64,000 bases of DNA, from assembly GCA_965262505.1 (NCBI GenBank), contig CBDHFM010000030.1, forward strand, positions 3,237,722 through 3,301,721. Reading direction: 5' to 3'. This DNA comes from Vicinamibacterales bacterium. Lineage in GTDB: Bacteria; Acidobacteriota; Vicinamibacteria; Vicinamibacterales; UBA2999. The notes beneath the pieces were generated by a model. That model had not been told where the DNA came from, did not search any database, and saw only the letters and a program-made list of their open reading frames with translations. Positions 32,679 to 34,293 of the stretch are shown here, piece by piece. How positions within the stretch are numbered: the stretch's first letter is position 1; each line of letters opens with the position of its first letter. The translations under genes and the position numbers were made by a program.

Positions 32679-33152
32679 ATGATCAAAGTAAACCTCGCCG
32701 ATGCCAAGTCGCATCTCTCGCAGTACCTCGACAGCGTTGAACGTGGCGAGACCGTGATCCTCTGCCGGCGCAACGTCCCCATCGCCGAGATTCGCCCGTT
32801 GCCAAAGCCGCCGGCGGAGCCTCGCCCAATCGGCACCGACCCTGACTTTGTGGTTCCGGACAGCTTCTTTGAGCCACTTCCGGAGGATCTTCTTGACGCG
32901 TTTGAGGGCGGCGGTGCCGACCACTGGAGCGAATCGACTGGGCTGGTAGAGGGTGACGCCTTTGAGCAACAGAAACGGCAGTGGGCCAACAGGCTCAGGA
33001 CGTTCTACGACCAGAAAAATCACCCGTCGCATCACGAGGACCTGCCGACGAGCCTGACCGACGTGATCGCGCGCCTCCAGGCACCGCGTTCCGGGGACCA
33101 GGAACCACTCGTGGCACGGGCCGAGAAGTACCTGATGGCTGCTGGCAGATGA
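32679..33152 (+). CDS. Phd/YefM-type antitoxin with an unusual ~75-aa C-terminal extension
   Basis: [42 protein letters not shown]...[12 protein letters not shown] is a complete antitoxin. The ORF then continues 75 more codons with good GC3. Its stop overlaps the next ATG (ATGA). Confidence 0.8.
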
Positions 33153-33907
33153 GCAAGGAGCTGATCGACTTCACGCTGAATCGTGCGGGGTGGGGGGACA
33201 GCCACTCGCTTGATCTAGATGTTCGGCAGATTGAAGCGGCGCGTGATCCCGAAACACTGCCGAACCTCTTGCGGGTCACGGCCAATGAGCCGCTCGCCGC
33301 TATCCTGTCGTGGCCTGCGCGTTCCGGTTGCGCGCTGCAGTGCCAGTACGCGCTCAGTCCAGTCGGCAGCGATAACCGGCAGGAGACGCTCATGGTTGCG
33401 GAAGCTGTCAAGTACAGCTGTAAAGGGGAAACGTTCGAGATCGAACTCGTCGATGGGTGGCGCGGCAAGCCGCACTACTGGGGTAACCGATCGGTGCATG
33501 AGGAAGAGGTCGAGGCCGCCATCCACGGCATGGCGCCGAACGGCGAGCTGCAGTTGCTGAGCGTCCGCGCAGAGCGCGACACCTATGACACGCCCCGAGC
33601 ACGGATCCTGCAGTCCAAGGACGACACAGCGGTGTTGTTTATCGCGATCCAGCCAGAGGAGGCGAAGATCCTTTCGGGCGTCGTTGAGCGGTTGCGCGAT
33701 ACCGACGTGGTGGTGCAACAACCAGGTGGGGTCTATCCGCTGGACGGCTCGTCGATGGCCGGCGCAAAGTACCAGCGGACTGACAAGAAAGCGCCGCTGG
33801 TCACACGGTGGCTCGGCGGCCACGGCACCCGCGCGCAGCAGGCGCTCGAACCGCGGATTGGAGCCCACCGGCACGTCCCGGAGCGTTGGTCAGGAGTGTC
33901 GCTTTGA
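33149..33907 (+). CDS. Unknown 252-aa protein, translationally coupled between antitoxin and toxin
   Basis: Strong GC3 codon bias throughout. Its ATG overlaps the upstream stop and its TGA overlaps the downstream TTG start. No recognisable motif. Confidence 0.65.
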
Positions 33908-34293
33908 CGCTCCTGCTCGACACCTGCACGTTTCTCTGGCTATTGTCCGATGATCCACGGCTGCCGCTGCGCGCCCGGACGGAGTGTCGTACCCCCTCGA
34001 ACGCCGTGTACCTCAGCGCTCTCTCGGTGTGGGAGATCACGATCAAGTATCGACTTGGCCGGTTGCCGCTTCCCGAATCCCCGGAGTTGTTCGTCGCCAG
34101 TCGTCGCCAGCGGCTGCAGATCGAACCTCTGCCGTACGACGAACGGGACGCGGTACACGACGTCCTGCTGCCACCGCATCATCGGGATCCGTTCGACCGA
34201 GGCTTGGTGTCGCAAGCGATCCTGCGCGGCCTGACGATCGTGACGCCAGACCCGGTGATCGCACGCTATCCGGCCCCCGTACTCTGGCTGTGA
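33904..34293 (+). CDS. vapC: PIN-domain toxin (VapC family)
   Basis: LLLDTCTFLWLLSDDPRL..., SALSVWEITIK and HHRDPFDRGLVSQA carry the PIN acidic residues. AGGAG lies 7 nt upstream of the TTG at 33904. Confidence 0.85.
   Translation: MTLLLDTCTFLWLLSDDPRLPLRARTECRTPSNAVYLSALSVWEITIKYRLGRLPLPESPELFVASRRQRLQIEPLPYDERDAVHDVLLPPHHRDPFDRGLVSQAILRGLTIVTPDPVIARYPAPVLWL

What the first reader, a model, noticed from the sequence alone, without database searches (positions are those of the whole stretch)
32679..34293. Translationally coupled three-gene operon: extended Phd antitoxin, unknown 252-aa protein, PIN toxin
Gene 1 starts as a complete Phd/YefM antitoxin (through ...[12 protein letters not shown], where such antitoxins normally stop) but continues for 75 more codons. 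Gene 3 is a complete VapC PIN toxin with all acidic residues, and normally it would follow the antitoxin directly. Between them lies a 252-codon ORF with strong GC3 bias and no recognisable motif. Its ATG overlaps the antitoxin stop (ATGA), and its TGA overlaps the TTG start of vapC, which has an AGGAG 7 nt upstream. About 1 kb of coding sequence therefore sits seamlessly in what is usually a bicistronic module. This suggests a tripartite system in which the middle protein and the antitoxin tail act as a sensor, chaperone or second effector, by analogy with toxin-antitoxin-chaperone systems. The locus lies between a transposon and a type I R-M locus, a defence-island context. I do not recognise this architecture as described.
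Basis: partly seen in the sequence, partly recalled or inferred. Interest (0 to 1): 0.8.

Follow-up and report, generated by a model that had tools for sequence, protein, structure and literature searches.

The report
Three-gene Phd–X–VapC toxin–antitoxin operon
This is a real, conserved three-gene version of an ordinary Phd–VapC toxin–antitoxin pair, found only in Vicinamibacteria (soil Acidobacteriota), in which the antitoxin has gained a tail and a 250-residue protein with no detectable relatives sits between antitoxin and toxin; what the extra protein does is still unknown.

Summary
Three translationally coupled genes lie at 32679-34293: a Phd/YefM antitoxin with an ~78-aa C-terminal extension ("ext"), an unannotated 252-aa protein X, and a PIN/VapC toxin.

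It is not a mobile insertion or a chance ORF. The same order, PhdN-ext-X-PIN, with 4-nt overlaps, recurs in all 28 genome loci that encode X. All are Vicinamibacteria MAGs, in unrelated neighbourhoods.

Canonical two-gene relatives exist. Their antitoxin stops just after ...AFEGG and directly overlaps a PIN gene. Both proteins are ~75% identical to the window's, so ext+X is an add-on to a normal pair.

All four parts are under purifying selection (dN/dS: PhdN 0.09, PIN 0.14, X 0.32, ext 0.49).

X is an orphan. It has no Pfam, NCBIfam, PADLOC or PDB match and no Foldseek match. A profile search of 1.84 billion protein representatives found only its own family.

Mechanism is inferred, not shown. 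Most likely ext docks X, and X controls antitoxin stability or toxin release, like TAC systems. It is not a TAC member, because X is not SecB-like. An AF2 test of ext-X docking was inconclusive.

Verdict: a new, lineage-restricted variant of a known kind, of moderate interest.

The parts
32641..32678 (+). Putative promoter and operator. A -35-like GTGATA (TTGACA/TTGACG in homologues) is followed by repeated TAGTCA/TGGTCA motifs (window 32647-32653, 32659-32665, 32672-32677). A -10-like AATAAT ends 8 nt before the ATG and there is no Shine-Dalgarno sequence, so the mRNA is probably leaderless.
   Evidence: Promoter scan and tandem 12-nt repeat. The alignment of 23 upstream regions shows the motif block conserved, including in the canonical two-gene relatives L014 and L016. 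Function is inferred.
32679..32915 (+). Gene 1, core (residues 1-79). It comprises the Phd/YefM N-terminal domain and the segment ...[18 protein letters not shown], which is presumed to bind the toxin. It is equivalent to the whole antitoxin of the canonical two-gene relatives.
   Evidence: PF02604 and TIGR01552 matches; 33 of 33 homologues hit PF02604. It is 76% identical to the short antitoxin P0252 over residues 1-78. dN/dS 0.09. Weak match to Mtb VapB46 and P1 Phd.
32916..33152 (+). Gene 1, C-terminal extension 'ext' (residues 80-157, plus the stop). A variable linker is followed by 2-3 predicted amphipathic helices ([14 protein letters not shown], LxDVIAxLQxP, ALVAxAEKxL).
   Evidence: Present only in antitoxins that are followed by X and absent from the canonical relatives. 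dN/dS 0.49, the fastest-evolving part but still below 1. Helices predicted.
33149..33907 (+). Gene 2, protein X (252 aa), an orphan alpha/beta protein. Its ATG overlaps the gene 1 stop (ATGA).
   Evidence: 108 cluster representatives of ~250 aa, down to 53% identity, with 45 invariant columns. AF2 pLDDT 77, pTM 0.73. No PDB or BFVD fold match and no family match. The profile search found only its own family in 1.84e9 representatives. dN/dS 0.32.
33892..33896 (+). AGGAG Shine-Dalgarno sequence for the PIN gene, lying inside the 3' end of X.
   Evidence: Sequence. The homologous junctions read GGAGTGTCGCC[A/G]TGAC.
33904..34293 (+). Gene 3, PIN-domain (VapC-type) toxin, 129 aa. Its TTG start overlaps the TGA of X (TTGA); homologues use ATGA or GTGA at the same position.
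   Evidence: PF01850, E 2e-10, full-length match. D6, E44, D95/D98 and D116 present. It is 75% identical to the PIN of the canonical pair L016. dN/dS 0.14.

Best explanation
Shown:
- The locus is a lineage-restricted (Vicinamibacteria) three-gene derivative of an ordinary Phd/YefM-VapC type II toxin-antitoxin pair.
- The antitoxin keeps its complete core, meaning the DNA-binding Phd domain plus the ...[16 protein letters not shown] segment that makes up the whole antitoxin in two-gene relatives. The toxin keeps a complete PIN domain.
- A cassette made of a ~78-aa antitoxin tail (ext) plus a 250-aa orphan protein X has been added between them. It is co-inherited, translationally coupled and under purifying selection.

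Inferred:
- The operon is transcribed as a probably leaderless mRNA from a promoter that overlaps repeated TGGTCA-like operator motifs. The Phd domain probably represses it.
- The core antitoxin segment neutralises VapC.
- The amphipathic helices of ext are a docking element for X. X thereby controls whether the antitoxin stays stable and bound.
- When X is lost, titrated or altered, for example by a phage or stress-derived ligand, the antitoxin fails and the VapC RNase is released.
- Functionally this resembles toxin-antitoxin-chaperone (TAC) systems, where a C-terminal 'addiction' extension makes the antitoxin depend on a third protein. Here the partner is unrelated, is not SecB-like, and is encoded in the middle of the operon.
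For: Architecture and conservation:
- PhdN-ext-X-PIN is collinear in all 28 genome loci that encode X, and in 8 metagenome loci, in different neighbourhoods.
- ATGA/GTGA overlaps are kept at the X/PIN junction in all loci listed and at the gene 1/X junction in most, a few having a short gap instead.

Derivation from a canonical pair:
- Short antitoxin P0252 is 76% identical to gene 1 residues 1-78 and ends at AFEGG+4. It overlaps a PIN gene that is 75% identical to gene 3.
- The same operator-like motif lies upstream of both types.

Selection:
- dN/dS is 0.09 (PhdN), 0.14 (PIN), 0.32 (X) and 0.49 (ext).
- So ext and X are translated and constrained, but evolve 3-5 times faster than the TA core. 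That fits a regulatory or sensing surface.

Link between ext and X:
- The extension is found only with X.
- In decayed loci where X is broken and ext is intact, PIN is also broken (L039, L043-L046).
- The one locus with X broken but PIN intact also has the antitoxin cut back to a short form (L042).
- L035 has ext truncated with PIN intact.
- No locus with X broken, ext intact and PIN intact was seen. An addiction model predicts exactly this.

Features of X:
- X has invariant Trp/Arg/Gly-rich segments (103-114, 219-230, 246-247) that AF2 cannot place (pLDDT below 50). This is typical of segments that order on binding a partner.

Precedent:
- In TAC systems a ChAD extension with an aromatic pattern makes the antitoxin depend on a chaperone, and a phage protein competes for that chaperone (PMC5105189; bioRxiv 10.1101/2024.02.24.581848).
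Against: - No direct evidence that ext binds X. AF2 on the natural ext-C::X fusion P0102 gave pLDDT 33-52 for the ext part and did not improve the floppy loops of X. That test was weak, because ext had no alignment depth and no PAE or coordinates were available.
- X has no similarity to SecB or to any chaperone, sensor or enzyme family.
- The decay tally is small: 7 loci and perhaps 4-5 independent events. It is also what ordinary toxin-first TA decay would produce.
- Some frameshifts may be assembly errors in MAGs.
- L007/L008 carry a damaged Phd N-domain with X and PIN intact. The simple model does not predict this.
- Toxicity, neutralisation and any anti-phage role are untested.
Confidence: 0.45

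Rival explanations
1. Two warheads, one antitoxin. X is itself a second toxin or effector, and the ext tail is its dedicated neutralising element. The chimeric antitoxin would then hold two different toxins (VapC through the core, X through the tail).
For: ext and X are gained, kept and lost together. X has many invariant polar residues (R12, S59, Q64, C65, E85, E99, R114, E120, E122, R210, R228, E234), which would be compatible with an active site. In L042, X and ext are both broken while PIN and the short antitoxin persist.
Against: X has no similarity to any toxin or enzyme fold. In L035 the tail is cut off the antitoxin by a frameshift while X stays intact. That would be lethal under this model unless the fused ext-C neutralises X in cis. 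X lies between antitoxin and toxin, and no toxin-like partner of X alone is ever seen without PIN.
Confidence: 0.15
2. X is a toxin-side accessory. It binds VapC (or its RNA substrate) and acts as a specificity, activation or second inhibitory subunit. The ext tail only tethers or masks it in the resting complex.
For: X and PIN are tightly translationally coupled, with the SD inside X and an ATGA/GTGA/TTGA overlap in all loci. X has conserved, unstructured Trp/Arg/Gly-rich loops, a composition common in RNA- or acidic-pocket-binding segments. Recurrent deletions join the N-terminal half of X to PIN, in frame in L045.
Against: The PIN protein is as similar to the two-gene relatives (75%) as the antitoxin core is, and shows no extra surface or extension that would indicate a new partner. 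The L043-L046 fusions delete the first 31 PIN residues, including the first catalytic Asp, so they look like decay and not Rosetta-stone fusions. No RNA-binding domain was detected.
Confidence: 0.15
3. Passenger or neutral insertion. The ext+X cassette is a selfish or accidental insertion that rides in a TA operon and contributes nothing to toxin control.
For: X is an orphan restricted to one bacterial class. The core pair is complete without it. ext and X evolve faster than the core. AF2 shows no ext-X docking.
Against: Both parts are under purifying selection (dN/dS 0.32 and 0.49) over divergence down to ~50% identity. Length, start/stop overlaps and 45 invariant columns are all conserved. 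No transposase, terminal repeats or stand-alone copies were found. X never occurs outside the operon in 28 genome loci, and it is absent from viral contigs and plasmids. The in-frame extension of the antitoxin is hard to explain for an unrelated passenger.
Confidence: 0.1
4. Artefact. The middle ORF and the tail are not translated, and are a chance ORF in GC-rich DNA or a mis-assembly.
For: GC-rich genomes produce many long spurious ORFs, for example the 219-aa antisense ORF at 33215-33874. Most of the data come from MAGs.
Against: The exact protein recurs in independent assemblies. The family holds 108 clusters of constant length. dN/dS is well below 1 in this frame. The GC1/2/3 pattern is that of coding sequence. 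The AF2 fold is confident.
Confidence: 0.01

Closest known systems
Canonical Phd/YefM-VapC (PIN) type II toxin-antitoxin pairs; nearest actual relatives are the two-gene loci L014-L018 (antitoxins P0252 and P0262)
   Same: The antitoxin core and the PIN toxin are ~75% identical. Both have the antitoxin first, 4-nt gene overlaps, and the same TGGTCA-type motif block upstream.
   Different: Here ~1 kb lies between the two genes, comprising a 78-aa in-frame antitoxin tail and the 252-aa protein X. The antitoxin and toxin genes are no longer adjacent.
TAC (toxin-antitoxin-chaperone) systems: Mtb HigB1-HigA1-SecB(TA), E. coli HigBAC, CmdTAC
   Same: Both are tripartite operons built on an ordinary type II pair. 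The antitoxin carries a C-terminal extension that is absent from two-component relatives, and a dedicated third protein is co-inherited with that extension (PMC5105189). The extension here also contains conserved aromatic and hydrophobic positions.
   Different: The third protein is not SecB-like: no PF02556 hit and no SecB among the top 50 fold matches shown. The TA family is Phd-VapC, not HigBA, HicAB, MqsRA or CmdTA. The third gene sits in the middle, not at the end. Dependence of the antitoxin on X is unproven.
Other three-component TA systems (paaR-paaA-parE, omega-epsilon-zeta, HipBST)
   Same: All are three co-transcribed genes that include a toxin and an antitoxin.
   Different: In those systems the third component is a separate DNA-binding regulator or a split-off toxin domain. 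X has no HTH or RHH domain. X has no homologue fused to any longer toxin in 1.84e9 protein representatives. The Phd domain here already supplies DNA binding.

Membership tests
Type II TA, Phd/YefM antitoxin - VapC/PIN toxin | Antitoxin with an N-terminal Phd/YefM domain | tested here: met
   PF02604 30.2 bits (cut-off 29.8) and TIGR01552 22.2 bits (cut-off 20.8). 33 of 33 homologues hit PF02604.
Type II TA, Phd/YefM antitoxin - VapC/PIN toxin | Toxin with a complete PIN domain and the conserved acidic residues | tested here: met
   PF01850 41.8 bits, profile positions 2-118 of 120. D6, E44, D95/D98 and D116 are present. Their assignment as the catalytic residues is by position and was not tested.
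Type II TA, Phd/YefM antitoxin - VapC/PIN toxin | Bicistronic: the toxin gene immediately follows or overlaps the antitoxin gene | tested here: not met
   A 756-nt gene (X) intervenes in the window and in every intact locus that encodes X. The two-gene relatives do meet this feature.
Type II TA, Phd/YefM antitoxin - VapC/PIN toxin | The toxin inhibits growth and the antitoxin neutralises it by direct binding | not testable with these tools
   Needs expression and rescue assays.
TAC (toxin-antitoxin-chaperone) | The third component is a SecB-like chaperone | tested here: not met
   No SecB or any other Pfam or NCBIfam hit for X, or for 41 family members at E<=1. No SecB among the top 50 Foldseek PDB matches shown; none of the 547 matches reaches E<=1e-3. 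The PDB profile search was empty.
TAC (toxin-antitoxin-chaperone) | The antitoxin carries a C-terminal extension absent from two-component relatives | tested here: met
   Gene 1 extends ~75 residues beyond the end of P0252, P0262 and P0267.
TAC (toxin-antitoxin-chaperone) | The TA unit is of the HigBA, HicAB or MqsRA (or CmdTA) type | tested here: not met
   The unit is Phd-PIN. Family list from PMC5105189.
TAC (toxin-antitoxin-chaperone) | The antitoxin is unstable or insoluble without the third protein (addiction) | tested here: inconclusive
   The only proxies are AF2 on the ext::X fusion, which showed no confident docking, and the decay pattern of 7 loci, which is compatible with addiction. 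An experiment is needed.
Three-component TA with a separate regulator (paaR-type, omega-type) | The third protein is a DNA-binding repressor (HTH or RHH) | tested here: not met
   No such domain in X. The predicted X fold is a beta-rich N-domain plus an alpha/beta domain.
Split-toxin tripartite TA (HipBST-type) | The third protein is homologous to a domain of a longer single-chain toxin | tested here: not met
   The exhaustive profile search found 14 hits: one full-length representative plus short sequences (68-212 aa) matching parts of the profile, and no longer multidomain protein.
Mobile-element insertion (IS, MITE, transposon cargo) | A transposase, or terminal repeats flanking the extra DNA; patchy presence at otherwise identical sites | tested here: not met
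   No transposase domain in ext or X. The cassette is present in every locus with seamless overlaps. The operon starts 99 bp outside the right IR of the neighbouring Tn3-family element.

The most novel reading that the evidence does not exclude
X is a non-SecB 'addiction partner' and trigger sensor. It would be an orphan protein with a previously unseen fold that docks on the antitoxin's C-terminal tail and gates VapC release. That would make it an independent, convergent invention of the TAC principle on a Phd-VapC chassis in Acidobacteriota.
Probability: 0.35. Interest if true: 0.75.

Novelty: new variant of a known kind. Interest (0 to 1): 0.55.

Why it matters
If the tail-plus-X cassette really gates the antitoxin, conditional "addiction" of antitoxins to a third protein would not be peculiar to SecB-like chaperones. 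It would be a design that evolution has reached more than once.

It would also give a function to a protein family that has no detectable relatives. And it would provide a compact sensor module that could be moved onto other Phd-type antitoxins.

The direct comparison with ~75%-identical two-gene relatives makes this unusually testable. One can add or remove ext and X and read out toxicity.

Even without a mechanism, it is a clean example of how a two-gene TA module gains a third, lineage-specific component.

The limits are that it is confined to uncultured soil Vicinamibacteria and that its biology is entirely untested.

Tried and rejected
- **Family searches.** I searched all three proteins against Pfam, NCBIfam, PADLOC and PHROGs. 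Only Phd and PIN were found; X gave nothing. Scanning all 41 X homologues at E<=1 gave only scattered single hits (Ferrochelatase, PAC_bac and others), which I rejected as noise.
- **NepR-like hits in ext.** They appear in 6 of 33 members at E 0.1-0.35. These are not significant, and at most hint at a short helical partner-binding peptide.
- **PDB sequence profile for X.** The only hit was a designed protein at E 0.16, which I rejected.
- **Foldseek of the X model against PDB and BFVD.** No hit reached E<=1e-3, and the best query-normalised TM-score was <=0.32. There were weak resemblances of the N-terminal ~100 residues to small beta-barrels (PilZ, FMN-binding split barrel, Hcp). These are too weak to use.
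- **Exhaustive HMMER profile search.** It found no remote homologues.
- **AF2 pseudo-complex using the natural frameshift fusion P0102 (ext-C::X).** The ext part was low-confidence, so the result is inconclusive.
- **Attempts to give ext alignment depth.** Aligning antitoxin tails to P0102 failed because MAFFT placed them over X (alignments A3-A5).
- **Search with ext alone.** It returned only fragments of the same family.
- **Viral contigs and plasmids.** X is absent from both.
- **Rfam scan of the locus.** No hits.
- **HExxH-like or Cys-pair metal site in X.** Rejected: H117 and C61 are not invariant, and the spacing does not fit.
- **Tn3 cargo hypothesis.** Rejected: the operon lies outside the right IR.
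Full report
**What is in the sequence.** Three same-strand ORFs occupy 32679-34293.
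- Gene 1 (32679-33152, 157 aa) matches the Phd/YefM antitoxin models over residues 1-40: PF02604 at 30.2 bits against a cut-off of 29.8, and TIGR01552 at 22.2 against 20.8.
- Gene 2, X (33149-33907, 252 aa), starts with an ATG that overlaps the gene 1 stop (ATGA). It matches nothing in Pfam, NCBIfam, PADLOC or PHROGs.
- Gene 3 (33904-34293, 129 aa) starts at a TTG that overlaps the TGA of X, with AGGAG 7 nt upstream. It is a full-length PIN domain (PF01850, E 2e-10) carrying D6, E44, D95/D98 and D116.
- Codon-position GC content shows the same coding signature in all three genes.
- No Rfam family matches the region.

The only correction is a one-base shift in the coordinates of the TTG/TGA overlap.

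**It is a conserved module, not an accident.**
- The exact proteins recur in independent assemblies.
- X has 108 cluster representatives, nearly all ~250 aa, down to 53% identity and none with a name. Their alignment has 45 invariant columns.
- Distant homologues lie in the same arrangement in unrelated neighbourhoods: an extended Phd (158-163 aa), then X (250 aa), then PIN (129 aa).
- A scan of one genome per species (185,579 species) found 28 loci. All are in Acidobacteriota of the class Vicinamibacteria.
- tblastn shows PhdN-ext-X-PIN collinear in every one of them.
- The ATGA/GTGA overlap at the X/PIN junction is kept in all loci listed. The one at the gene 1/X junction is kept in most, with one clade showing a 5-nt gap instead.
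- X is absent from IMG/VR viral contigs and from PLSDB plasmids.

**It derives from an ordinary two-gene pair.**
- A search with gene 1 found many short Phd proteins (88-96 aa as called) that align only to its first half.
- P0252 and P0262 are followed directly by a 128-aa PIN gene, overlapping it by 4 nt in L016.
- P0252 is 76% identical to gene 1 residues 1-78 and ends four residues after ...DAFEGG. Its PIN partner is 75% identical to gene 3 over 128 residues.
- The tripartite operon therefore equals a canonical Phd-VapC pair plus an in-frame antitoxin tail of ~78 aa ("ext") and the X gene.
- Upstream of both types lies the same conserved block: a TTGACA-like -35, repeated TGGTCA/TGACCA motifs, and an AT-rich -10-like hexamer that ends 6-9 nt before the start codon, with no Shine-Dalgarno sequence.
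- I read this as a probably leaderless, autoregulated promoter. That is an inference.

**Selection.**
- Over 20 intact loci, the median Nei-Gojobori dN/dS is 0.09 for the Phd core, 0.14 for PIN, 0.32 for X and 0.49 for ext.
- ext and X are thus translated and constrained, but they evolve several times faster than the TA core.
- The ext alignment shows a variable linker followed by conserved amphipathic helical segments (RQWxxRLRAFYDQK, LxDVIAxLQxP, ALVAxAEKxL).

**What X is.**
- AF2 with 41 homologues gives a reasonably confident model (mean pLDDT 77, pTM 0.73). It has a beta-rich N-terminal part (residues ~3-101) and an alpha/beta part (118-210).
- Three of the most conserved stretches have pLDDT below 50, and all are rich in Trp, Arg and Gly:
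  - GWxGxPxYWGNR, residues 103-114;
  - [12 protein letters not shown], residues 219-230;
  - RW, residues 246-247.
- Foldseek against the PDB and BFVD gave no match at E<=1e-3, and the best query-normalised TM-score was <=0.32.
- A PDB sequence-profile search found nothing meaningful.
- A profile search that read all 1.84 billion cluster representatives returned 14 hits: one full-length representative plus short sequences (68-212 aa) matching parts of the profile.
- X is therefore a taxonomically restricted orphan with no recognisable fold relatives.

**Evidence on how ext and X relate.**
- ext occurs only with X.
- Decayed loci are informative but few:
  - In L039, X is split by a 2.75-kb insertion and PIN is frameshifted, while ext is intact.
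  - In L043-L046, deletions remove the C-terminal half of X together with the first ~31 PIN residues, including the first catalytic Asp. ext is intact, and L045 is an in-frame X::PIN fusion.
  - In L042, X carries an internal deletion, yet PIN is intact. There the antitoxin is also cut back to a 96-aa short form.
  - In L035, a frameshift truncates the antitoxin early in ext and fuses the rest of ext to X, with PIN intact.
- I saw no locus with X broken, ext intact and PIN intact.
- That pattern is what an addiction model predicts: the tail makes the antitoxin depend on X. It is also compatible with ordinary toxin-first decay, and some frameshifts may be MAG errors.
- The only direct computational test available was AF2 on the natural ext-C::X fusion P0102. 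The ext part was low-confidence (pLDDT 33-52) and the loops of X were unchanged.
- That test was weak. ext had no alignment depth because MAFFT could not be made to align the tails, and no PAE was available.

**Comparison with known systems.** The closest functional analogy is the TAC class.
- In TAC systems an ordinary TA pair gains a C-terminal antitoxin extension (ChAD) and a dedicated SecB-like chaperone.
- In E. coli HigBAC, a phage protein competes with ChAD for the chaperone and so triggers the toxin (PMC5105189; bioRxiv 10.1101/2024.02.24.581848).
- This locus shares the tail-plus-third-protein logic but fails the defining features. X is not SecB-like, the TA family is Phd-VapC rather than HigBA, HicAB or MqsRA, and the third gene lies in the middle. 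It may work like a TAC but is not one.
- It is also unlike tripartite systems whose third gene is a repressor, or a split toxin domain as in HipBST. X has no DNA-binding domain and no homologue inside a longer toxin.
- Literature searches for a Phd-X-VapC or similar tripartite PIN system found nothing.

**Context.**
- In the window the operon lies 99 bp outside the right inverted repeat of a Tn3-family element (28813-32580) that has a broken tnpA.
- It lies upstream of a polymorphic IS (34455-35849) and a type I hsdM/hsdS pair.
- Across 24 other loci, about a fifth of 106 neighbouring ORFs are integrases, transposases, R-M components or further PIN genes. The rest are housekeeping genes.
- So an island or defence context is frequent but not universal.

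**Verdict.**
- The interpretation as a genuine tripartite system is supported at the level of architecture, co-inheritance and selection. The mechanism remains inference.
- My best estimate is a TAC-like conditional control of the antitoxin through ext-X docking, at ~0.45.
- The rivals are X as a second toxin, X as a toxin-side accessory, and X as a passenger.
- It is a new, lineage-restricted variant of a known kind, of moderate interest. The existence of 75%-identical two-gene relatives makes it directly testable.

Noticed in passing
window 28813-32580: A Tn3-family element bounded by 35-bp inverted repeats (28813-28847 and 32546-32580, 94% complementary). It has a resolvase gene on the minus strand and a tnpA broken into at least three ORFs (DUF4158 29274-30431; 30307-31827; DDE_Tnp_Tn3 31407-32546), so it is probably a dead transposon. 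The TA operon lies outside it.
   Followed up: partly
window 34455-35849 (-); L048: An IS with an rve integrase sits between the PIN gene and hsdM. It is absent from the otherwise identical contig L048, so it is a recent, polymorphic insertion. More IS copies (DDE_3; rve at 39910-41040) follow hsdM/hsdS (36001-38612), and no hsdR was identified nearby.
   Followed up: partly
L045 5818-6675; L043, L044, L046 ~6000-6750: Recurrent deletions join the N-terminal half of X to a PIN lacking its first ~31 residues. In L045 the fusion is in frame: X(1-127)::PIN(32-129). It is probably toxin-inactivating decay, but the fusion ORF is intact and could be expressed.
   Followed up: partly
L039 6459-9215: X is interrupted by a 2.75-kb insertion carrying a DNA methyltransferase with an HNH-like C-terminus and an IS1595-like transposase. 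The downstream PIN gene is frameshifted and then cut by another transposase gene.
   Followed up: partly
L009/L010 3001-5222; protein P0152: An AbiEi(DUF6088)/AbiEii abortive-infection pair has replaced most of X and all of PIN. P0152 is a chimera of X residues 1-47 and DUF6088. The antitoxin remains as a truncated orphan. One TA-type module has overwritten another.
   Followed up: no
L004 3047-5139 versus L011-L013 3001-3539: The same chromosomal site (downstream of smpB and an epimerase gene, upstream of a DAO-family oxidase gene) carries different content in different genomes. One has HicAB plus the full three-gene module; the others have only a Phd remnant next to a HicB-like gene. This is a TA hot spot beside smpB.
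   Followed up: no
L007/L008 ~3550-3760: A deletion and frameshift lie inside the Phd N-terminal (DNA-binding) domain, while the PIN-binding segment, ext, X and PIN stay intact. The same lesion appears in two independent samples. The simple model does not explain it; a shorter antitoxin from an internal start is possible.
   Followed up: no
window 33904: The window's PIN gene uses a TTG start where the homologous loci listed use ATG or GTG at the same overlapping position. This suggests weaker toxin translation in this strain.
   Followed up: no
OZ220728.1 (L036, L038); OZ252241.1 (L020, L039): Two genomes each carry two copies of the module, and the copies have diverged (L036 and L038 are 61% and 58% identical to the window's X). 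In L036, X is 269 aa and the PIN gene lies ~60 nt further downstream.
   Followed up: no
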